64,000 nt of DNA, taken from contig CAZILL010000001.1 of NCBI GenBank assembly GCA_964540105.1, positions 1,034,063 through 1,098,062 on the forward strand. Reading direction: 5' to 3'. The DNA is from an uncultured Ignavibacteriales bacterium. Its GTDB lineage: Bacteria > Zixibacteria > MSB-5A5 > GN15 > FEB-12. The notes under the pieces are model-generated. The model was not told where the DNA came from. It did no database searches and saw only the letters and a program-made list of their open reading frames with translations. Shown one piece after another: positions 1 through 9,091 of the stretch. The position numbers and the translations under genes are program-made. Numbering within the stretch: the first letter of the stretch is position 1; the number at the start of each line of letters is the position of its first letter.

Positions 1-455
1 ACGCAGAAATCCATCCCACCGTTCCGCAGATGATTCATCGCCTCAACCGTCCTGCGGAAACTATCCGGCCGCTTGCGAATGAAATTGTGCACCTCTTCGG
101 TGCCGTCGATGCTGACCCCTACGCGGCCAATCTCCAGTCGGACAAAATCAGCGACAACCTGGGGCGTTACGGCATAGCCATTTGTAATCAGGTTCACGAT
201 CAGGCCGTTTTCTCTAAGATGGGCCGCCAACTCGCGCCAATCATCGCGAAGAAGCGGCTCACCTCCCGACAGCGTGACATGCTTGCACCCCAGTGCTGTA
301 AGGTCATCGATCAATTTCAGCGCTTCAGCAGTCGTCAATTCATCAGGCCGACGTTTCCCTGCCGCCGTACCGCAGTGGATGCAGCGCATATTACACGCGA
401 AGGTTATCTCCCAGACAACCATCTCGGGATAAAATTTGAAACCGTTGCCGCTCAT
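1..455 (-). CDS. Radical SAM enzyme, N-terminal part (gene runs off the left edge)
   Basis: Absent from the ORF track because it has no in-window stop. Reverse translation from the ATG at 455..453 gives MSGNGFKFYPEMVVWEITFACNMRCIHCGTAAGK...VTLSGGEPLL. This contains the CxxxCxxC cluster motif (CNMRCIHC) and the GGEPLL SAM motif. Its start and the upstream gene's stop overlap as ATGA. Confidence 0.8.
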   Translation of the reverse strand, partial: MSGNGFKFYPEMVVWEITFACNMRCIHCGTAAGKRRPDELTTAEALKLIDDLTALGCKHVTLSGGEPLLRDDWRELAAHLRENGLIVNLITNGYAVTPQVVADFVRLEIGRVGVSIDGTEEVHNFIRKRPDSFRRTVEAMNHLRNGGMDFC

Positions 456-1804
456 TTCTGGGTCTCCTGTGTGGTTACGGGATTCGATTGCTGGCGTGAC
501 TGCGCAACCAATTCGAGCATCGGGCGTAAATTGTATTTCCAGCTGTCGCAAAATTCAGATTCGTCTATCGAGCGGTCTGACCGCCTCGACGGACACCCCC
601 CCATGCAGATTGGAAGGATCTCGCAATCGCGACAACTCCCCACCTCGAACGGATCGAAGGAAAACAGGCGAAGAAATTCCTCGTTCTTGTAGTCGACATC
701 CTGAAGGATGTTACCTGTGACTTTCGTCTTATCCCCCACATAGTTGAAACAGCGGTACAGATCACCGTCGGGGTCAATCAGGAACGAATTCCTCCGCTGC
801 GCGAGGCAGAAGGTCAGTATTGGCTGCGGAAGCTTCTCGACGCGGAATCCCTCATCCAGCAGAATCCGGTAGTACTCCAATTCGGCCTGCGAATATGCCT
901 TTGTCTCGAAGCAACTTTCAGCGATGTTGGCGCACGCCACTGTCGCAGGCTCGAGATGCCCAAAATAGATGCAGGTTTTGTTCTTCAGTCCGGCCGCATC
1001 GAGTTCGACCAACAATTCTCTGATCGTTTCAGGCGTAAACGACCTATCGACATTGACGCGGATCACAGTCGGAATCTGTGCGCAGGCGTAAGCGAGATTC
1101 GTTAGTATCACGTCGAAACTATCCTTGCCGTTCTTCAAGGGACGTTTACGATTGTGTACCCTCGCAGGCCCATCGATTGTTACCTGAATTTCCCCCAATC
1201 GCAGGTTCGCAAATCGGTCGACTTTCTCTTTCGTGAGAAGATAACCGTTGGTCATGACGCCACCAGCACTGAACTTGAACTTGTATTGCTTCTCAAGATC
1301 TACAAAGGACGCCGTCAGATCTTCAATAATGTCCATCGCCAGCAAGGGTTCACCGCCATACCAGGTAACCTGGAAATCTTCGAGCTTTGGCGCGCGCCTT
1401 TCGATGAATTCTATCAACCCCTCTACCACTTTGGGCGTCATGCGGCCACTCTTGTTGGCCTCAAAGCAATAGTCGCATCCCATGTTGCATGCCATCGTCG
1501 GCGCGACCACCAGACCGAGTGATGACATGTCGTACCGCGAATCACGGTACCGGAATTTCAGTCGTTCCAGTTCACTCCCATCGGCTTCGGTGACAAACCC
1601 GCCGTAGCCAAGTTGACTAAGCAACAGCTTCTCTTCTTCCGTCAATTGAACCGGCTGGCCGTCGGACAGCATGACACATAGCCGCTCATAGACGGCGAAG
1701 TTTTCCGCGGTCATCATTCCGACCGCACCCGTCAGGGCGTTGAAAGCTAGGCAGTTTCCGTCACGCAAAGGGTGTATGTGGTTGTATCGTGATATGTACG
1801 GCAT
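452..1804 (-). CDS. Radical SAM/SPASM-domain peptide-modifying enzyme (maturase-like)
   Basis: CNMGCDYC (CxxxCxxC) and GGEPLL are present. The C-terminal SPASM signature is exact: GDLYRC (Gx4C) followed by CRDCEILPICMGGC (Cx2Cx5Cx3C). About 105 aa precede the cluster, which could be an RRE-like peptide-binding domain. AAGGA lies 7 nt upstream of the ATG. Confidence 0.85.
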   Translation of the reverse strand: MPYISRYNHIHPLRDGNCLAFNALTGAVGMMTAENFAVYERLCVMLSDGQPVQLTEEEKLLLSQLGYGGFVTEADGSELERLKFRYRDSRYDMSSLGLVVAPTMACNMGCDYCFEANKSGRMTPKVVEGLIEFIERRAPKLEDFQVTWYGGEPLLAMDIIEDLTASFVDLEKQYKFKFSAGGVMTNGYLLTKEKVDRFANLRLGEIQVTIDGPARVHNRKRPLKNGKDSFDVILTNLAYACAQIPTVIRVNVDRSFTPETIRELLVELDAAGLKNKTCIYFGHLEPATVACANIAESCFETKAYSQAELEYYRILLDEGFRVEKLPQPILTFCLAQRRNSFLIDPDGDLYRCFNYVGDKTKVTGNILQDVDYKNEEFLRLFSFDPFEVGSCRDCEILPICMGGCPSRRSDRSIDESEFCDSWKYNLRPMLELVAQSRQQSNPVTTQETQK

Positions 1805-1879
1805 TGGATATCCTTCGCTTGTAACGCCCGGTCAGTACTTTCTACACTACATCGCTTTTGTCGCATTCTCAATCTTCAT

Positions 1880-1909
1880 GCGGGCGTTCCCCCGAAAGGG
1901 AGCGCCCGC
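1880..1909 (-). promoter_or_regulatory. Intercistronic stem-loop between the small ORF and the radical SAM gene
   Basis: The transcript reads GCGGGCGCUCCC-UUUCGG-GGGAACGCCCGC. That gives 11 of 12 paired positions and a 6-nt loop. No U-tract follows, so it is not a classical intrinsic terminator. Confidence 0.4.
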
Positions 1910-1922
1910 GTAACTATGGTCA

Positions 1923-2015
1923 TCAGATGATGATGCCATACAGAGGCTTGATGTGACAGTACACCTTGCACCCCTGCAATTCGATCACATCTTTAGGGTC
2001 GACCAAATAGATCAT
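1923..2015 (-). CDS. 30-aa small ORF, candidate RiPP precursor (MIYLVDPKDVIELQGCKVYCHIKPLYGIII)
   Basis: Hand-translated; it is too short for the ORF track. GAGGAGGTGA ends 5 nt upstream of the ATG. It lies on the same strand as the SPASM radical SAM gene and 118 nt upstream of it. It has two Cys residues in its C-terminal half. Confidence 0.5.
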   Translation of the reverse strand: MIYLVDPKDVIELQGCKVYCHIKPLYGIII

Positions 2016-2498
2016 GAATCTCACCTCCTCGGGTCTCTTAGGGTTTTGGATTGAACGATCATATCCGTGTACCACACATCAGAACTATGATACACATGCA
2101 ACATGAAGATTTACAGACGCTTCTGCAGACAATGAAGATACTCATACAGCAGACTCTCAATTGTCGTTCGTGAACTGCGTACTAACTGCAAGTACCGCCT
2201 GTTCGCGAGAACAGTACTATTAGTGTATTATTCGTAGAACATCTTGTCAAGGACGATCTGCACGACATTCCCCGTCGGGTAGTAACTACATCGAGGTCCT
2301 GATCTGTGCGGGTTTAGCTAATGTCGGACACGGACAGTCTTTTTGTCAAGGCGCAGTCCTGATAATCTAGTCTTGCTGAAAGGGGCAAACCACGCGCACC
2401 AAAAGGAGCCATTGTCCCGAAGAAGAGTCCTCTTCTGAAGTGTCAGTCGATGAAAGAAAGTCTGATGCGCTCGCTCGCGACGATGCGTACTTTGCGGT

Positions 2499-3344
2499 AT
2501 GGCATCGGGCAGAATTCGCATCGGCACGTCATCGTTCTCGGAGACCGACTGGGTCGGCCCGTTCTACCCACCCGGGACTAGGCCCAGAGATTTCTTCAAA
2601 TTCTACGCCACGCAATTCTCGACCGTGGAGATCGATGCGTCATACTATGCCATACCGACCATTCGTACCGTAGAACGATGGTGTCAGCTTGCCCCCTCAG
2701 AGTTCATTGTAGGCGCGAAGTTTCCCCGCGAGATTGTCCACGGCGGCGAGGCCGCGACGCCGGATGGTTCGACAGTGCTGGACCCAGACCGGACTTATCC
2801 CGTGCGCGACAAGTTCCTGAGCGTGATGGAGCGACTCGGAACGCGCCTCGGCGTGCTGGTTCTTCAGTTTCCGTACTTCAACAGATCCATCTTCCCGGAG
2901 CCTGAAGCATTCCTCAATCGGTTAGATCGATTTCTCAATGACCTTCCAAGGCAGTTTCGATACGCGGTTGAAATTAGGAACCCAAAATGGCTTACCGCCG
3001 ATTTTGCTGATCTTCTCCGTAGGTACGATGTCGCACTGGTGCTGGTAGATCAGGAGTGGATGCCACCGATCGCAGAAGTTACTCAGCGCTTTGATCCGTT
3101 TACGACTGATTTCGCGTATGTGCGCCTGCTTGGGGAACGGAAGCGCATCGAAGCGATTACGACGACGTGGGAGAAGGAGGTCATCGACCGAACCGACTCC
3201 CTCGAGATCTGGAGCACATTCCTGACCAAGTCCCTCTCCGTCAACACCAATGCCTATATCTACGTCAACAATCACTTCTCGGGGCATGCGCCGTCAACCG
3301 CCCGAAAGCTCGAAGCACTCATCCAAGAGAAACTGTCGCTCTGA
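2499..3344 (+). CDS. DUF72 (YecE/UPF0759) family protein
   Basis: The N-terminus reads IRIGTSSFSETDWVGPFYPPG...FFKFYATQFSTVEIDASYYAIP, which is characteristic of DUF72. The length (281 aa) is typical for the family. Confidence 0.85.
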   Translation: MASGRIRIGTSSFSETDWVGPFYPPGTRPRDFFKFYATQFSTVEIDASYYAIPTIRTVERWCQLAPSEFIVGAKFPREIVHGGEAATPDGSTVLDPDRTYPVRDKFLSVMERLGTRLGVLVLQFPYFNRSIFPEPEAFLNRLDRFLNDLPRQFRYAVEIRNPKWLTADFADLLRRYDVALVLVDQEWMPPIAEVTQRFDPFTTDFAYVRLLGERKRIEAITTTWEKEVIDRTDSLEIWSTFLTKSLSVNTNAYIYVNNHFSGHAPSTARKLEALIQEKLSL

Positions 3345-3780: not shown

Positions 3781-4470
3781 CTACGATTTATGCGAACCAA
3801 TGAAGCGGTATACTGCTGCTCCCAATATGGCCCCGACAATCGGGGCTACCCAGAATAACCATAGCTGTTCAACTGCCCAGCCGCCTACAAACAGAGCCAC
3901 GCCTGTACTCCGCGCAGGGTTGACCGACGTGTTTGTTACGGGGATACTGATTAGATGGATCAACGTGAGTCCTAAGCCTATAGCTATTGGGGCGAAGCCT
4001 TGGAGTGCACGTTTGTCCGTTGCCCCAAGAATGATGAGCAGGAACATCATTGTCATTACAACTTCCGTAAGCAGTGCGGCAAGGAATGAGTAACCGCCGG
4101 GAGAATGGGTTCCATAGCCGTTTGATGCGAAACCAGCTGATACATCGAAATCGGCCTTGCCGGTGGCGATGAGGTAGAGAACTCCACCTGCCACAACTGC
4201 TCCGAGCACTTGAGCAATGATGTAGGGCAGGAGTTTATTGGCCGGGAAACGCCCCCCAGCCCAAAGTCCGATCGACACGGCCGGGTTGAGGTGACAGCCG
4301 GAAATGTGGCCGATGGCATAGGCCATGGTCAGAACGGTCAGACCGAACGCAAGGGCCACCCCAAGCAATCCTATGCCAACACCTGGAAATGCAGCGGCCA
4401 AAACAGCGCTTCCGCAACCTCCAAGAACCAACCAGAATGTTCCAAAGAATTCAGCACCATACTGTTTCAT
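3781..4470 (-). CDS. aqpZ: Aquaporin Z
   Basis: Two NPA boxes are present (HLNPAVS and VNPARS). The N-terminus [23 protein letters not shown] and the 229-aa six-TM layout fit the family. AAGGAG lies 8 nt upstream of the ATG. Confidence 0.95.
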
Positions 4471-4978: not shown

Positions 4979-7900
4979 GTGAAGGCGCTCACGCTTGCTG
5001 CTTTGTGGTCGGTTGGCCTCTGCCTGTTTGCGGCTCAGTCCTTTGCGTTCCACCCGATCTTTTATACTCGCATCGACTTTCCGGTAGGCGGCAGGGAACC
5101 ACGCTCGATGTGCACCGCAGATTTCGATGGGGATGGCGCACTGGACTTGGCAACGTCGAATTTCGACAACGGCAATGTCTCGATTCTCCGCAACAATGGG
5201 AATGGAACCTTCGGCGTCGCTGACAATTATGGCGTGGGAAGCGGACCTCTTACAATATTTGCTACCGATGTTGACAAGGATGGCCATCCTGACATCGTGG
5301 TGGCTAACTACAGCTCCAATGACATTTCAGTGCTGAAGAACAACGGTAACGGCACGTTTGGGACCGCCACGAACTATGGAGTTGGTATTAGCTGGCCTTA
5401 TTCTCTTTGTTCAGCCGACTTTGACGCCGACGGATGGCCGGACATAGCCGTTGCTAATTCGGGCACAAATACTGTGTCCATGTTGAAGAATCACGGCGAT
5501 GGAACTTTCGCTGATGGTGTCAGCTACACTTGTGGCAGCAACCCGCATTCGGTCTGTGCTGCTGACTTTGATGGGGACGGAAGTTTCGATCTGGCCGTGG
5601 CCGATTATGCTGCAGACAGCGTTTCGATTCTCAAGAACAATGGCAACGGTACTTTTGCAGCTCTGGTAAGTTATAAAGTTGGGTCCGGTCCGTGGTATGT
5701 GCTTGCAGCGAATTTCGGCGCAGACGCAAAGCTTGATCTTGTGGCTGTAAACTATGGTTCAAACACGGTATCCGTCCTTATCAATGACGGTTCCGGTGCA
5801 TTTGGGACAGCTGTTGACTACCCGTCAGGAGGTAGGTCACTTTGTGCCAGTTCTGGCGATCTGGACTCAGACGGAGACATCGACCTGATAGTACCGAGCA
5901 TCGACGTACAAAGTGTCTCAATCCTGAAGAACAACGGAGTCGGCACATTTGCTGCACCGGTTAGCTATGCGATTGAGAATGAAGGGTGGGCCGCTTGTGT
6001 TGGTGATCTTGATGGGAATGGAAAACCTGACGTTGCAGTGGGAAACCGATGGCCGATGCCCAGTGTCTCGGTTTTCATGAACGATGGAAATGGAGGACTT
6101 CGAACCCCACCAGAATATGGGGTTGACAATCCTCAATCTATCACTTCAGCAGATTTCAATGGCGATGGACAATTTGACGTAGCCACGGCAAACTGGAATT
6201 CCAACGCGATATCCACATTGAAGGGTAATGGCGACGGGACTTTTGAGCCTGCTATCAACTACGCTGTGGGCAGCCACCCGATTTCAATAGCTACAGCGGA
6301 TGTGACTAGCGACGGGAAGCCCGATTTGGCAGTCGTGAACTACTCCTCAGGCACAGTATCCGTCCTAAGGAACAACGGTAACGGTGAATTCGGAAATCGA
6401 CTTGACTACTTTGTAGGATCTTGTCCGATTTCAATCGCTGCCGGAGATCTGGATGGAAACGGATCGACTGACCTGGCGGTCGCCAACTTCTGCTCCAATA
6501 ACATCTCTATCCTACTCAATGACGGTGCTGGCACTTTTAACGCTTCAGCTAACTACTCTGCCGGACTCAACCCCTACTCTTTACAGATCGCTGATATCGA
6601 TGGTGACGGAAAGAAGGACGTAATAGATGTCTGCACCGGAGATGCAGGGGCATACTTCTTCAAGAACAACGGAAACGGCACTTTCTCTTCGGGAGTGTAT
6701 TCTGCGATAGGAGGTTCGCCACGCTTCGTGTGTGTTCATGATGTGAACATGGATGGAAAGCCTGACTTGATTATAGCTAATGGATCTAACAATCCCTATA
6801 ACTGGGGGGCCGGTGTCCGAGTATTGATAAACAGTGGCAGCGGTACATTTTCAACTCTCGCTGTTTACTCACCTGGCTACAATCCGTATTCACTTGCTGT
6901 AACGGATTTTGACGGCGACGGCCTATCAGAAGTGGCTGTGGGAAATGCAGGTTCTGCTAACATCTCGATAATGGAAATCAATGGCGACGGCACACTTACC
7001 TTGAGAAACAACTACGGGGTGAATGGTGGAATGCTCTCTATTTGCGCAGCAGACTTCAATGGTGATGGCAAGACCGACTTGGGAGTAGCTTTGTATGCAA
7101 AGAATGCGATCACCGTTCTCCTGAACCAATCCGTACCGAGCATACCTCTATTCGATACTACTTCGACTACCGACACAGCCAACGTTTTCTTTGTCAAACA
7201 GGCGGATATGGATTTGGACAATAACCCGGATATTGTATTCACCGGCAATAGTTCAGACAGTCTGTTTATCATTTACGGGAAACCAAACGGCACGCTGGAA
7301 AAACAGCGATCTTACTTGAACATCAAGAACGCCGCCATCGCGATTGACTTCATCAACGGTGATACTCTACTGGATATCGCGGCCCGGACAATGACGAAAC
7401 TGTATGTGCTCTTGAATCTGGGAGGCCGCAATTTCAGCATCGATTCAATGACTACAGGCGCTTCGCCGATGGTGTATTCGCCGAACGTGGCGACGTTTCC
7501 GACAATCACCACCGGCTACTTTGACGGAGATGCCAAGAAAGATATCGTTGTCAATCCCGGTGTACTCTTGTCAGGCAATGGTCTTGGTCAGTTCCCATCT
7601 AATCAGACACTGCCGTTCACGCTCGATTTTGTCGGCACAGCTGATTTCAACGGAGACGGCAGAGATGACATTATTGCTACGAACGGCGACTCCGCCCGAA
7701 TCTATCTGAACAACGGAACGGGGGCCTTCACTCTGTCGGCAGCCACTCGGATCGGGTATCGGGCGTATGATGTGGTATCGCTTGCCTCAGACATCGATTT
7801 GAACAATGACGGCAAACCTGATGTGGCGTTGGTGACGGGCATTTCCACAGGAACTAATGACACGAGTGTGGTAACGCTGATTGTAGGGAATGGAACCGGT

Positions 7901-9091
7901 GGGGTTGCCAGTTCGCAGGCGATTCCGATTGTGGGGAGCGCCTTGAGCCTGTCGGTGGCAGACATTGACAAAGACAAGAATCTGGATATCAGTGTGGTCA
8001 ACAGCACGACCAAGGACTTGACCATATATTCAGGGAACGGTTTAGGGGGTGTAATTGCTACGCTCAAAGAATCGATGGGAGCTAATCCAGTACTTTCATT
8101 AGTGGCGACGGATTTGAACCGGAGCGGAAGTGTTGATTTTGTGGTTGGTGGTCAGGCGGGGAGCCCGATTCTGACGGCCCTTAACCAACTGCCGCCTGAT
8201 CCGATTCGACCTGAGGAGATGGTCGCCACGGGGTATGGGAATATCTCCATCTCCGAGATCAACCCGCAGGGAAGGACGATCTCAAGAGGATTGAGCACGG
8301 TGGCCGGTTCGGCCTTTGGCCGGTCTGATTTCGACGGGGACGGCGTGATTGACCAGCGAACCTGGGACTACAATCTGCAGGACGGCGAGTACATGATTGT
8401 GATACGCCCCAATCCGGGAACCACCCCTCCTGGTCCGGTGTTTTCGACCGACATTCGAATTAATGGTTCTGATCAATTGCAGTCACGTGTGTTTCATGAC
8501 TATCGCGATGCCTGGGGGAGTCTACAGAAAACAGCCGATGCTGCCGCCTTTGACAGCCTCATCTTCTATTTCAAGGTGGAATCGGTGTCCTCGATCAAGC
8601 CGAACAACGGCGTCAGGACGCACAGTCCACGTCCCGGCTTTGCGTGGGATCGTTTGATCGACTCGTCTGGAGTGCTCAAATATCAGTTTCAGCTGGATCG
8701 CTATTATGACTTGCGAGCCCCGATCTACGACGATTCGAGTCTGACGGCACCGAGATTCTTTGTCAATGCGTCCCTGGGTCTTGATTCGGTCTATTACTGG
8801 CGGGTGCGTGCTAAACGAGCGGGGGGGTGGGACTTATACTCTCGCACTTTTGCGGCGTACATAGGACCTGGCTGTTGCCTGAGTACCACCGGCAACACCG
8901 ACGGCTCACCCGACGACGTGGTTGACATTTCGGATGTGTTTGCGGTAGTCGATTATCTGGGCGCGAGCATTCCGCTTTCAAGCTGTTCGCCTGAGAATGA
9001 TGTCAATATCGATGGCACCATAGATATTTCCGATCTGTTCGCTCTGATCGATTACTTGAGTGGGACAGCGCAGCTGCCACCGTGCGCATAA
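4979..9091 (+). CDS. Secreted FG-GAP/VCBS-repeat protein (1370 aa) with a C-terminal 72-aa dockerin-like module
   Basis: GTG start with a signal peptide (LCLFAAQSFA). There are 21 repeats of about 47 aa, each with a DxDxDG Ca-loop (for example DFDGDGALD and DVDKDGHPD) and an SVLxNNGNGTF strand. The last 72 aa read CCLSTTGNTDGSPDDVVDISDVFAVVDYL...ENDVNIDGTIDISDLFALIDYL...PPCA. Confidence 0.9.
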   Translation: MKALTLAALWSVGLCLFAAQSFAFHPIFYTRIDFPVGGREPRSMCTADFDGDGALDLATSNFDNGNVSILRNNGNGTFGVADNYGVGSGPLTIFATDVDKDGHPDIVVANYSSNDISVLKNNGNGTFGTATNYGVGISWPYSLCSADFDADGWPDIAVANSGTNTVSMLKNHGDGTFADGVSYTCGSNPHSVCAADFDGDGSFDLAVADYAADSVSILKNNGNGTFAALVSYKVGSGPWYVLAANFGADAKLDLVAVNYGSNTVSVLINDGSGAFGTAVDYPSGGRSLCASSGDLDSDGDIDLIVPSIDVQSVSILKNNGVGTFAAPVSYAIENEGWAACVGDLDGNGKPDVAVGNRWPMPSVSVFMNDGNGGLRTPPEYGVDNPQSITSADFNGDGQFDVATANWNSNAISTLKGNGDGTFEPAINYAVGSHPISIATADVTSDGKPDLAVVNYSSGTVSVLRNNGNGEFGNRLDYFVGSCPISIAAGDLDGNGSTDLAVANFCSNNISILLNDGAGTFNASANYSAGLNPYSLQIADIDGDGKKDVIDVCTGDAGAYFFKNNGNGTFSSGVYSAIGGSPRFVCVHDVNMDGKPDLIIANGSNNPYNWGAGVRVLINSGSGTFSTLAVYSPGYNPYSLAVTDFDGDGLSEVAVGNAGSANISIMEINGDGTLTLRNNYGVNGGMLSICAADFNGDGKTDLGVALYAKNAITVLLNQSVPSIPLFDTTSTTDTANVFFVKQADMDLDNNPDIVFTGNSSDSLFIIYGKPNGTLEKQRSYLNIKNAAIAIDFINGDTLLDIAARTMTKLYVLLNLGGRNFSIDSMTTGASPMVYSPNVATFPTITTGYFDGDAKKDIVVNPGVLLSGNGLGQFPSNQTLPFTLDFVGTADFNGDGRDDIIATNGDSARIYLNNGTGAFTLSAATRIGYRAYDVVSLASDIDLNNDGKPDVALVTGISTGTNDTSVVTLIVGNGTGGVASSQAIPIVGSALSLSVADIDKDKNLDISVVNSTTKDLTIYSGNGLGGVIATLKESMGANPVLSLVATDLNRSGSVDFVVGGQAGSPILTALNQLPPDPIRPEEMVATGYGNISISEINPQGRTISRGLSTVAGSAFGRSDFDGDGVIDQRTWDYNLQDGEYMIVIRPNPGTTPPGPVFSTDIRINGSDQLQSRVFHDYRDAWGSLQKTADAAAFDSLIFYFKVESVSSIKPNNGVRTHSPRPGFAWDRLIDSSGVLKYQFQLDRYYDLRAPIYDDSSLTAPRFFVNASLGLDSVYYWRVRAKRAGGWDLYSRTFAAYIGPGCCLSTTGNTDGSPDDVVDISDVFAVVDYLGASIPLSSCSPENDVNIDGTIDISDLFALIDYLSGTAQLPPCA

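What the first reader, a model, noticed from the sequence alone, without database searches (positions are those of the whole stretch)
1..2015. Unannotated 30-aa Cys-containing ORF upstream of two translationally coupled radical-SAM genes: candidate RiPP cluster
A short ORF (1923..2015, minus strand; MIYLVDPKDVIELQGCKVYCHIKPLYGIII) has one of the strongest ribosome-binding sites in the window: GAGGAGGTGA, 5 nt before the ATG.

An 11/12-bp GC stem-loop (1880..1909) follows it. Next comes a 450-aa radical SAM enzyme with an exact SPASM signature (Gx4C ... Cx2Cx5Cx3C) and a roughly 105-aa pre-cluster N-terminal region of the size of an RRE/PqqD-like peptide-binding domain. A second radical SAM gene (CNMRCIHC) is coupled to it by an ATGA overlap and runs off the contig edge.

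Precursor, hairpin, then maturase is the classic layout for sactipeptide, ranthipeptide or cyclophane-type RiPPs. The hairpin is thought to set precursor-to-enzyme stoichiometry. The core-like half (CKVYCHIKPLY) has two Cys plus aromatic/His/Lys residues. Thioether or three-residue cyclophane chemistry is therefore conceivable, but which one applies is pure speculation. About 480 bp of AT-richer non-coding DNA upstream would fit a dedicated promoter.
Basis: partly seen in the sequence, partly recalled or inferred. Interest (0 to 1): 0.7.

Follow-up and report, generated by a model that had tools for sequence, protein, structure and literature searches.

The report
Unnamed two-enzyme radical-SAM peptide family
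The 30-residue ORF is a real, widely conserved precursor peptide of an unnamed natural-product family, and it probably receives both cysteine cross-links and a tyrosine-excising "splice" that leaves a protease-inhibiting keto-amide.

Summary
The ORF at 1923-2015(-) is a genuine gene. 151 non-identical relatives share M-I-Y-L-I-D-P, a Cys-x3-Cys core, and an invariant P-[L/M/C]-Y-G-[V/I] motif. Their codons vary mainly at third positions. They have GGAGG ribosome sites and usually a GC hairpin downstream.

The cassette is conserved in about 30 loci from Zixibacteria, Ignavibacteria, Calditrichota, Acidobacteriota and other MAGs. Its order is: precursor(s), a 450-aa RRE+SPASM radical-SAM enzyme, an overlapping 372-aa SPASM enzyme, an optional B12 radical-SAM enzyme, and an ABC exporter.

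- **Enzyme 1** is a distant relative of the Clo7bot maturase and of CteB. Clo7bot peptides share the leader motif M-x-[Y/F]-[I/L]-[I/V]-x-P.
- **Enzyme 2** is about 35% identical to the PlpX-type tyramine splicease families (TIGR04103, TIGR03913). All four of their loci that I inspected encode X-Y-G peptides.

The likely product is a thioether-bridged peptide carrying an alpha-keto-beta-leucine warhead. No Pfam or NCBIfam model covers the peptide or reaches cut-off for the enzymes. I could not check whether the 2022 splicease survey already lists this type. No chemistry was tested.

The parts
1923..2015 (-). Precursor peptide gene (30 aa + stop): MIYLVDPKDVIELQGCKVYCHIKPLYGIII
   Evidence: ORF read. 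A gene caller also called it on the identical contig L001. The family comprises 151 non-identical peptides. Codon third-position variation shows selection on the protein.
1995..2015 (-). Leader motif M-I-Y-L-V-D-P (residues 1-7), the proposed recognition sequence for the RRE of enzyme 1
   Evidence: M1 and P7 are invariant. Y3 is 140/151, L4 147/151 and D6 133/151. Clo7bot peptides next to 33-35%-identical maturases share M-x-[YF]-[IL]-[IV]-x-P.
1956..1970 (-). Cys16-x3-Cys20 core unit (CKVYC), the proposed site of cross-linking by enzyme 1
   Evidence: The first Cys falls at position 14-16 in 139/151 peptides. Cys-Cys spacing is x3 in 251/324 intervals. Peptides carry 2-5 Cys.
1935..1946 (-). 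P24-L25-Y26-G27, the proposed tyramine-splice site (X-Y-G motif)
   Evidence: P-X-Y-G is present in 151/151 peptides, with X = L 125, M 14, C 12. The next residue is V/I in 145/151, then P/D in 134/151. The context matches known splicease substrates: ALYGLPP, AAMYGVV, PGYGLPI.
2021..2030 (-). Shine-Dalgarno GAGGAGGTGA, 5 nt upstream of the ATG
   Evidence: A GGAGG-type site precedes nearly all family precursors.
1880..1909 (-). GC-rich stem-loop between precursor and maturase
   Evidence: Centroid -24.2 kcal/mol, z = -2.5. There is no U-tract. Stable hairpins follow most family precursors, mean z = -3.1.
452..1804 (-). Enzyme 1: 450-aa radical SAM/SPASM peptide maturase with an N-terminal RRE-like domain (residues ~1-92, window 1529-1804)
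   Evidence: NCBIfam best hits are Clo7bot maturase TIGR04334 (330 bits, cut-off 600) and TIGR04463 (287 bits). The AF2 model has pLDDT 84 and a beta3-alpha3 N-terminus. The best Foldseek match is full-length CteB 5wgg. Twelve Cys are invariant.
1..455 (-). Enzyme 2: the first 151 codons of a 372-aa radical SAM/SPASM splicease-like enzyme, overlapping enzyme 1 by ATGA. The rest lies left of the window (L001:3878-4996).
   Evidence: TIGR03913 249 bits, TIGR04103 247 bits, next family 182 bits. It is 33-37% identical over more than 90% of its length to annotated members of both families.
2016..2498 (.). Divergent intergenic region (GC 0.43-0.47) between the precursor and the DUF72 gene. It contains one sigma-70-like match at 2222-2250(-).
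   Evidence: TTGACA-17-TACACT matches 10/12, but the number of matches equals the shuffle expectation, so the promoter is not established.

Best explanation
This is the start of a five-gene RiPP operon:
1. the precursor (in the window);
2. enzyme 1, an RRE-SPASM radical SAM (in the window);
3. enzyme 2, a SPASM radical SAM (first 151 codons in the window);
4. a B12-dependent radical SAM (left of the window);
5. an ABC exporter (left of the window).

**Shown**
- The peptide belongs to a large, unnamed family with three modules: an N-terminal M-I-Y-L-I-D-P leader, a variable Cys-x3-Cys core, and an invariant P-[L/M/C]-Y-G-[V/I] motif.
- The two SPASM enzymes always accompany it.

**Inferred**
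- *Step 1.* The winged-helix RRE domain of enzyme 1 binds the short leader, as in its Clo7bot-type and CteB-type relatives. Its radical SAM/SPASM core then links the Cys sulfurs to carbon atoms of nearby residues (sacti/ranthipeptide-type thioethers), making a compact polycyclic core.
- *Step 2.* Enzyme 2 recognises P-L-Y-G-V/I and acts as PlpX-type spliceases do. It excises the tyramine part of Tyr26 (-135.07 Da) and rejoins the backbone. Leu25 thereby becomes an alpha-keto-beta-leucine, a keto-amide warhead against serine and cysteine proteases.
- *Step 3.* Where present, the B12 enzyme adds C-methyl groups.
- *Step 4.* The peptidase-less ABC transporter exports the product.
- *Expression.* The strong ribosome site plus the downstream hairpin favour an excess of precursor over enzymes.
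For: **The gene is real and conserved**
-.

**The cassette is conserved**
- It holds in L002-L030 and in loci found starting from the peptide (L085-L088).
- The ATGA overlap between the two enzyme genes recurs in at least 10 loci.

**Enzyme 1**
- Best family matches are Clo7bot maturase (330 bits), TIGR04463, CefB and PapB.
- The closest solved structure is CteB by both sequence (E = 1.8e-24) and fold (Foldseek E = 9e-19, full length).
- The N-terminus is beta3-alpha3.
- Clo7bot peptides share the leader motif: hhalign aligns columns 1-16 with P = 0.004.

**Enzyme 2**
- The top NCBIfam families are TIGR03913 and TIGR04103, about 65 bits above any other family.
- PlpX is described as a member of an uncharacterized SPASM radical-SAM subclass (IPR026482), and its precursors have NHLP- or Nif11-type leaders (PMC11002830).
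- tblastn finds annotated members of both families at E = 1e-53 to 1e-66, then a gap to MftC at 1e-33.
- The neighbours of those homologues carry ALYGLPP, PYGV/MYGV..GDL, QPYGAG and VMYGTG peptides.
- Shared motifs such as NIGYYG, GC.AG and NNPYC run along the whole core.
- Spliceases act at X-Y-G with X natively Met or Leu, and the products inhibit proteases (PMC9811515, PMC11626197, PMC11414181).

**Division of labour**
- Clo7bot loci lack both enzyme 2 and P-x-Y-G.
- In L013 a paralogue of enzyme 1 without enzyme 2 is preceded by leader-bearing peptides that lack P-x-Y-G.
- Across phyla enzyme 2 is more conserved than enzyme 1: 52% against 41% identity in L085.

**Exporter**
- It has ABC_membrane and ABC_tran domains only.
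Against: - No chemistry was tested.
- Both enzymes score far below the curated cut-offs of every NCBIfam family, so function is transferred across 33-37% identity.
- Known spliceases need a Y protein or a helical leader as activator (PMC11414181). The cassette has no Y-like gene, and the roughly 14-residue leader is too short for such a helix.
- The Clo7bot family is itself uncharacterised, as far as I know, so "thioether" rests on the more distant CteB and PapB.
- In two Rheinheimera spliceotides the Cys residues merely form a disulfide (PMC11626197).
- No leader peptidase is conserved, so the mature product's ends are unknown.
- The hairpin lacks a U-tract and the promoter is not established.
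Confidence: 0.6

Rival explanations
1. One reading: a sactipeptide, ranthipeptide or cyclophane RiPP in which both SPASM enzymes only install cross-links. Enzyme 2 would make a Tyr-centred C-C, C-O or C-S cross-link at P-L-Y-G rather than excising tyramine.
For: - Both enzymes are SPASM radical SAMs, and the core is Cys-rich and aromatic-rich.
- The last Cys sits exactly 6 residues before the Tyr in 89/151 peptides, so a fixed Cys-Tyr or Lys-Tyr ring is geometrically conceivable.
- Enzyme 2 is below every family cut-off.
Against: - The nearest families of enzyme 2 are the two whose inspected members all sit beside X-Y-G peptides.
- The invariant Gly after Tyr and the L/M preference before it match the splice motif (PMC9811515).
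- Cyclophane-forming families score only 54-67 bits, and that is against enzyme 1.
Confidence: 0.2
2. It is a spliceotide only. Enzyme 1 is mainly a leader-binding or activating partner, a functional stand-in for PlpY, and the cysteines form ordinary disulfides after export.
For: - Spliceases need an RRE-like activator (PMC11414181), and the only RRE in the cassette is on enzyme 1.
- The two genes overlap by ATGA in many loci.
- Rheinheimera spliceotides carry a disulfide (PMC11626197).
Against: - Enzyme 1 keeps all radical-SAM and SPASM cysteines invariant over 27 sequences at 52-77% identity.
- Its Clo7bot-type relatives work without any enzyme 2.
- The strict Cys-x3-Cys periodicity suggests an enzymatic register.
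Confidence: 0.12
3. The small ORF is a chance ORF or a non-secreted cofactor precursor (PQQ- or mycofactocin-like), and the enzymes serve primary metabolism.
For: - Enzyme 2 also matches AhbD, NirJ and MftC at 150-180 bits.
- The ORF carries no annotation or name in any source.
Against: - 151 distinct peptides have a hypervariable core.
- There are 1-6 tandem copies per locus.
- A dedicated ABC exporter is present.
- The codon-level signature shows selection on the protein.
- No sulfatase, heme or dehydrogenase partner is conserved nearby.
Confidence: 0.03

Closest known systems
Spliceotides (PlpX/PcpX/RhaX tyramine spliceases; NCBIfam TIGR04103, and TIGR03913 'GDL-motif peptide-associated' enzymes)
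   Same: - Enzyme 2 is a SPASM radical SAM that aligns over its whole core with members of both families at 33-37% identity.
- The precursor has an invariant X-Y-G motif with X = Leu or Met, followed by V/I/L and then Pro. Compare ALYGLPP in Nostoc, AAMYGVV in PlpA3 and the splice tag PIRPGYGLPI.
   Different: - It scores below both families' cut-offs: 247-250 bits against 592 and 725.
- The precursor is 29-52 aa with a 7-residue conserved leader, rather than a Nif11/NHLP leader of 70 aa or more or a DUF1842/1843 protein.
- There is no Y protein.
- A second, RRE-bearing SPASM enzyme and a Cys-x3-Cys core are always present.
- Hosts are Zixibacteria, Ignavibacteria, Calditrichota and Acidobacteriota MAGs.
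Clo7bot Cys-rich peptide system (peptide TIGR04333, maturase TIGR04334) and its neighbours TIGR04463 and CefA/CefB
   Same: - Enzyme 1's best family match has the same RRE + radical SAM + SPASM architecture.
- The peptides begin directly with M-x-[Y/F]-[I/L]-[I/V]-x-P, followed about 8 residues later by a Cys-rich core.
- Precursors occur in tandem copies.
   Different: - Identity is only 33-36%, and the score is 330 bits against a cut-off of 600.
- The family peptides do not hit TIGR04333.
- Clo7bot loci have no enzyme 2 and no P-x-Y-G tail.
- The Cys spacing differs (x2 to x3, in Asn/Asp-rich cores).
CteB (SCIFF maturase, PDB 5wgg) and PapB: ranthipeptide thioether synthases
   Same: - CteB is the closest solved structure by sequence profile and by fold, over the full length including the RRE.
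- The substrates have cysteine-containing cores.
   Different: - Identity is about 19%.
- SCIFF and freyrasin precursors and motifs (Cys-x3-Asp in PapA, from my own knowledge) are unrelated to this family.
- The acceptor residue here is unknown. Thr is enriched at position 2 of the C-x-x-x-C unit.

Membership tests
Spliceotide RiPPs | A radical SAM/SPASM enzyme homologous to validated spliceases (PlpX type) | tested here: met
   Homology is clear: TIGR04103 at 247 bits (E = 2.5e-73) and TIGR03913 at 249 bits are the top two families. Identity to annotated members is 33-37% over more than 90% of the length. I had no validated splicease sequence to compare directly. The link from PlpX to TIGR04103 rests on family naming, PMC11002830 and my own knowledge.
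Spliceotide RiPPs | Membership of the curated equivalog families TIGR04103 or TIGR03913 (score at or above cut-off) | tested here: not met
   247 bits against a cut-off of 725, and 249.5 bits against 591.75. Enzyme 2 forms its own branch, about 35% identical to both families, which are about 47% identical to each other.
Spliceotide RiPPs | The precursor carries a conserved X-Y-G splice motif | tested here: met
   P-X-Y-G is present in 151/151 family peptides, including the window's P24-L25-Y26-G27. Six peptides have two such sites.
Spliceotide RiPPs | A Y protein or a helical leader segment that activates the splicease | tested here: not met
   No Y-like gene is present in the cassette or conserved in the flanks. 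The leader before the first Cys is only about 14 residues. A conserved C-terminal tail on enzyme 2, or the RRE of enzyme 1, might substitute; this was not tested.
Spliceotide RiPPs | [quoted passage not shown] | not testable with these tools
   Needs co-expression and MS/MS.
Clo7bot system (TIGR04333/TIGR04334) | The maturase scores at or above the TIGR04334 cut-off | tested here: not met
   330.5 bits against a cut-off of 600.
Clo7bot system (TIGR04333/TIGR04334) | The peptide matches TIGR04333 | tested here: not met
   Four family peptides give no hit at E <= 1. The Clostridial peptides found beside distant homologues score 34-60 bits. Only the first 16 columns align profile-to-profile, with P = 0.004.
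Sactipeptide / ranthipeptide maturases | RRE domain + radical SAM CxxxCxxC + SPASM domain with auxiliary-cluster cysteines | tested here: met
   The beta3-alpha3 N-terminus is seen in the AF2 model. C106/C110/C113 plus nine further Cys are invariant. The SPASM domain model TIGR04085 scores 54 bits against a cut-off of 27. The fold matches CteB.
Sactipeptide / ranthipeptide maturases | A Cys sulfur-to-carbon thioether in the product | not testable with these tools
   Needs MS/NMR of the modified peptide.
Anaerobic sulfatase-maturating enzymes | Scores as TIGR03942 and has a sulfatase partner | tested here: not met
   88.9 bits against a cut-off of 349. No sulfatase is conserved near the cassette.
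Three-residue cyclophane (triceptide) maturases | Enzyme in the XyeB/GrrM/YhhB/AmcB families | tested here: not met
   YhhB 67 bits, AmcB 62 bits and GrrM/OscB 54 bits, against cut-offs of 310-445.
Peptidase-containing ABC transporters (PCAT) | An N-terminal C39 peptidase domain | tested here: not met
   The 585-aa protein has only ABC_membrane and ABC_tran domains. Its alignment to TIGR01193 starts at profile position 178.
B12-dependent radical SAM (class B) methyltransferases | B12-binding domain + radical SAM domain | tested here: met
   PF02310 at 43 bits and PF04055 at 55 bits. The best family is the RiPP C-methyltransferase TIGR03975, at 82 bits and below its cut-off. The gene lies outside the window (L001:5073-6500) and is present in only about 60% of the loci.

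The most novel reading that the evidence does not exclude
This would be a distinct RiPP class in which one very short precursor is processed by two physically coupled SPASM radical-SAM enzymes with different chemistries: Cys thioether cross-linking and tyramine splicing.

The splicease would have no Y protein or helical leader. It would be activated through the RRE of its partner maturase, or through its own conserved C-terminal tail.

The products would be compact, polycyclic keto-amide protease inhibitors made by uncultured sediment and soil phyla.
Probability: 0.35. Interest if true: 0.75.

Novelty: new variant of a known kind. Interest (0 to 1): 0.62.

Why it matters
[quoted passage not shown] If confirmed, this family would put that chemistry into 29-52-residue precursors beside a second cross-linking enzyme.
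- **Natural diversity.** The 151 natural core variants amount to a ready-made library.
- **An open mechanistic question.** The family may show how a splicease can work without its usual activator.
- **Annotation.** It would give a function to unnamed small ORFs and "radical SAM protein" genes in Zixibacteria, Ignavibacteria, Calditrichota and Acidobacteriota. It would also link the uncharacterised Clo7bot-type leader to a wider superfamily.

Tried and rejected
**Family and literature searches that found nothing**
- NCBIfam and Pfam searches with the peptides gave no family.
- Full-text searches found nothing relevant for the peptide motifs, for Clo7bot and the TIGR ids, for OhkG/FlmE/CefB, or for spliceotide combined with these phyla.
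- The key survey (Scott et al. 2022, Chem) is not held. I could not check whether this type is already catalogued.

**Features that did not hold up**
- Intrinsic-terminator scan: no hit.
- Sigma-70 promoter scan: one hit, equal to chance.
- Rfam over the whole window: no hit.
- Pfam on the N-terminal 103 residues of enzyme 1: no PqqD/RRE hit. The RRE-like domain was seen only in the AF2 model.
- Conserved flanking genes, especially a leader peptidase: none beyond the cassette.
- Any link between presence of the B12 enzyme and a peptide feature: none seen by eye. L010 and L015 have near-identical peptides but differ in having the B12 gene.

- The last protein search, run with the 151-aa fragment of enzyme 2, returned only fragments.

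**Identities considered and rejected**
- Anaerobic sulfatase maturase, triceptide maturase, and a peptidase-containing exporter (see the membership table).
Full report
**1. The observation**

Read on the minus strand, window 2015-1923 encodes MIYLVDPKDVIELQGCKVYCHIKPLYGIII. GAGGAGGTGA lies 5 nt before the ATG. A GC stem-loop follows at 1880-1909 (7+5 bp, centroid -24.2 kcal/mol, z = -2.5). Next comes a 450-aa radical SAM/SPASM ORF at 452-1804, and then a second radical SAM ORF that starts at 455 within an ATGA overlap. GC falls to 0.43-0.47 in the 480-bp region upstream.

Three details need correcting:
- The hairpin has no U-tract, so it is not a canonical terminator.
- The single sigma-70-like match (2222-2250) is what shuffled sequence gives.
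- Position 1 is only the window edge. A Logan contig (L001), 100% identical over 4332 bp, continues 7.2 kb to the left.

**2. The whole operon**

L001 shows this gene order:
- precursor (30 aa, called as a gene);
- enzyme 1 (450 aa);
- enzyme 2 (372 aa, radical SAM + SPASM);
- a B12-binding radical SAM enzyme (475 aa; best family is the RiPP C-methyltransferase TIGR03975, 82 bits);
- a 585-aa ABC exporter with no C39 peptidase domain.

A Gly-zipper lipoprotein-like protein and MscL follow. They are not conserved elsewhere.

**3. Is the small ORF real?**

A scan of species-representative genomes with a profile of enzyme 1 returned 29 close loci, at 48-61% identity. They come from Zixibacteria, Ignavibacteriales, Calditrichota, FCB-group and Thermodesulfobacteriota MAGs.
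- In 25 of the 26 loci that have upstream sequence, one to three small ORFs of the same type precede the enzyme.
- A profile of 39 of these peptides found 144 called peptides in the protein collection. All are "hypothetical" with no Pfam domain.
- Together this gives 151 non-identical sequences of 29-52 aa.

Their anatomy is strict:
- M1 and P7 are invariant. Y3 is 140/151, L4 147/151 and D6 133/151.
- The first Cys falls at position 14-16 in 139/151.
- Each peptide has 2-5 Cys, spaced by three residues in 251 of 324 intervals.
- Every peptide contains P-X-Y-G, with X = Leu 125, Met 14, Cys 12. It is followed by Val/Ile (145/151) and then Pro/Asp (134/151).
- Six peptides carry the motif twice.

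Across 41 genomic copies, the conserved codons vary at third positions (entropy 1.3 bits) but hardly at first or second positions (0.1-0.5 bits). Selection therefore acts on the protein. GGAGG-type ribosome sites precede nearly all copies, and stable hairpins follow most (mean z = -3.1). The window's peptide is a typical member.

**4. The conserved cassette**

tblastn and clustering of all ORFs in the 30 loci show only four conserved partners: enzyme 1, enzyme 2 (57-69% identity, the best conserved), the ABC exporter, and the B12 enzyme in roughly 60% of loci.
- No peptidase is conserved.
- The 4-bp overlap between the two SPASM genes recurs in at least 10 loci.
- Starting from peptides instead of enzymes gives the same picture. 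P0154, listed in 106 blocks of the collection, sits with several sister precursors before enzyme 1, enzyme 2 and the exporter.
- A Terriglobales MAG has three M[D/E]YLIDP...P[L/M]YGVP peptides before an extra SPASM enzyme, an enzyme 1 orthologue (41% identity) and an enzyme 2 orthologue (52% identity).

**5. Enzyme 1**

- NCBIfam ranks it with peptide maturases: Clo7bot maturase TIGR04334 (330 bits), TIGR04463 (287), FlmE/OhkG (203), CefB (194), geopeptide (175) and PapB (130). All are below cut-off. The anaerobic sulfatase maturase scores 89 bits.
- The closest solved structure is the SCIFF thioether synthase CteB, by profile (E = 1.8e-24) and by fold. The AF2 model has pLDDT 84, and Foldseek gives E = 9e-19 aligned over the full length.
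- The model's first 90 residues form three strands and three helices, the RRE layout. Pfam does not detect this.
- Twelve cysteines are invariant.
- The more distant homologues (32-37% identity) in Clostridia are preceded by tandem peptides that score as TIGR04333 Clo7bot peptides. These begin M-K-[Y/F]-I-[V/I/K]-K-P.
- That is the same N-terminal motif as M-I-Y-L-I-D-P. A profile-profile alignment pairs columns 1-16 (P = 0.004, weak but in register).
- I infer that this short leader is what the RRE binds.

**6. Enzyme 2, the main revision**

- Its two best NCBIfam families are TIGR03913 ("GDL motif peptide-associated", 249 bits) and TIGR04103 ("nif11-class peptide radical SAM maturase 3", 247 bits). 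The next family scores 182 bits.
- PlpX, the founding tyramine splicease, belongs to an uncharacterized SPASM radical-SAM subclass (IPR026482) and modifies precursors with NHLP- or Nif11-type leaders (PMC11002830). That this is TIGR04103 is my own knowledge.
[quoted passage not shown] X is natively Met or Leu, and the keto-amide is needed for potent protease inhibition (PMC11414181, PMC9811515, PMC11626197).
- tblastn of enzyme 2 against annotated plasmids gives members of exactly these two families at 32-37% identity (E = 1e-53 to 1e-66). There is then a gap to MftC at 1e-33.
- I read the neighbours of four of these homologues:
  - Nostoc: a Nif11 precursor ending ...GGRGSIALYGLPPELF, plus a 71-aa gene in the position of a Y protein.
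  - B. pseudomallei: DUF1843/DUF1842 proteins with TPYGVA, AAMYGVA and MPMYGVG, each followed by GDL.
  - Aureibacter: DUF1843 peptides with QPYGAG.
  - Agathobacter: an unannotated ORF ending GPVMYGTGVRM.
- The PlpA3 core is AVAAMYGVVFPWD, and the engineered splice tag is PIRPGYGLPI.
- The family's K-P-L-Y-G-V-P is the same kind of site.
- Enzyme 2 aligns with these enzymes along the whole core and shares motifs beyond the Fe-S cysteines (VWEIT, GGE..R.DW, NIGYYG, GC.AG, NNPYC).
- It forms its own branch, about 35% identical to both families, which are about 47% identical to each other.

**7. Division of labour**

- Clo7bot-type loci have neither an enzyme 2 nor a P-x-Y-G tail.
- In L013 a paralogue of enzyme 1 that is not followed by enzyme 2 is preceded by MDYL[V/I]DP... 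peptides without P-x-Y-G. The second copy, which is followed by enzyme 2, is preceded by a peptide with P-L-Y-S.
- So the leader travels with enzyme 1 and the Tyr motif travels with enzyme 2.

**8. Proposed mechanism**

*Shown:* the modular peptide, the enzyme pair and the exporter.

*Inferred:*
- The RRE of enzyme 1 binds the leader.
- Enzyme 1 forms thioether cross-links in the Cys-x3-Cys core. Thr is enriched at position 2 of the unit, and Lys/Leu/Tyr/Phe at position 3.
- Enzyme 2 splices Tyr26 out, turning Leu25 into alpha-keto-beta-leucine.
- The B12 enzyme, when present, methylates.
- The ABC transporter exports the product.

*Open points:*
- How enzyme 2 is activated without a Y protein or helical leader. 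The options are a complex with enzyme 1 or its own conserved C-terminal tail xDxExxxxLLxRF.
- Whether and where the leader and the 3-12-residue tail are removed.
- What role the hairpin plays.

**9. Novelty**

No Pfam or NCBIfam (June 2026) model covers the peptide or reaches cut-off for either enzyme. No source names them. The searchable literature holds nothing on the motifs or on spliceotides in these phyla.

The 2022 survey of spliceases found YG-rich PlpX-like systems in 189 genera and confirmed 27 splicease-substrate pairs (as summarised in PMC10849128). It is not held here, so prior cataloguing of the enzyme 2 branch cannot be excluded.

I rate this a new variant of known kinds: a splicease system fused to a Clo7bot/ranthipeptide-like system on one short precursor.

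**10. Verdict**

The finding is real and more interesting than proposed. The chemistry is untested.

Noticed in passing
window 3781-4470 (-): A 229-aa ORF with two NPA motifs (HLNPAVS, VNPARS), so it looks like an aquaporin/MIP channel. It lies close to the cluster but is not conserved with it.
   Followed up: no
window 4979-9091 (+): A 1370-aa protein made of FG-GAP/VCBS-like repeats (...DFDGDG...) with a dockerin-like C-terminus. Large repeat proteins also turned up near the cassette in 5 related loci.
   Followed up: no
window 1-64000: No Rfam family reaches its gathering score anywhere in the 64 kb: no tRNA, rRNA or riboswitch.
   Followed up: yes
window 2499-3344 (+): A DUF72 protein (173 bits) is divergently transcribed from the precursor. 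It is not conserved next to the cassette in other loci.
   Followed up: partly
L013:1811-7536: Two copies of enzyme 1 lie in one locus. The first is preceded by MDYL[V/I]DPKNFETSLTCCTPQGCYLYA... peptides that lack P-x-Y-G, and it has no enzyme 2. The second is preceded by a P-L-Y-S variant and is followed by enzyme 2.
   Followed up: partly
L085:2237-7132 and L086: An Acidobacteriota (Terriglobales MAG) variant: three M[D/E]YLIDPEEIT... precursors and an additional, unrelated 354-aa radical SAM/SPASM gene ahead of the enzyme 1 and enzyme 2 orthologues.
   Followed up: partly
L089:6716-9586: Two family peptides are followed by a GNAT acetyltransferase and a 212-aa ORF. No radical SAM gene appears before the contig ends, so the cassette may be split or differently ordered here.
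   Followed up: no
L087:5925-8850: Five or six precursors are dispersed over 3 kb and interrupted by an alcohol-dehydrogenase gene on the other strand. They include leader variants MLFLICP and MVYLISP, in which Asp6 is replaced.
   Followed up: no
L001:4880-4993 (C-terminus of enzyme 2) and its orthologues: A conserved tail xDxExxxxLLxRF follows the SPASM domain in the four family enzyme 2 sequences aligned, but not in the TIGR03913/TIGR04103 enzymes. It might act as a built-in activating helix.
   Followed up: no
L083:4168-4881 (Aureibacter tunicatorum plasmid pAT1): Three tandem DUF1843 peptides lie next to a TIGR03913-like enzyme, an ATP-grasp (RimK-like) gene and a methyltransferase. Two of the peptides have Y-A instead of Y-G at the expected splice position.
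   Followed up: no
L084:4800-4930 (Agathobacter rectalis): An unannotated small ORF, MFNLEELSLEFVKISELKTSKNLFGPVMYGTGVRM, lies directly upstream of a splicease-like radical SAM gene and an MFS transporter in a human-gut bacterium.
   Followed up: no
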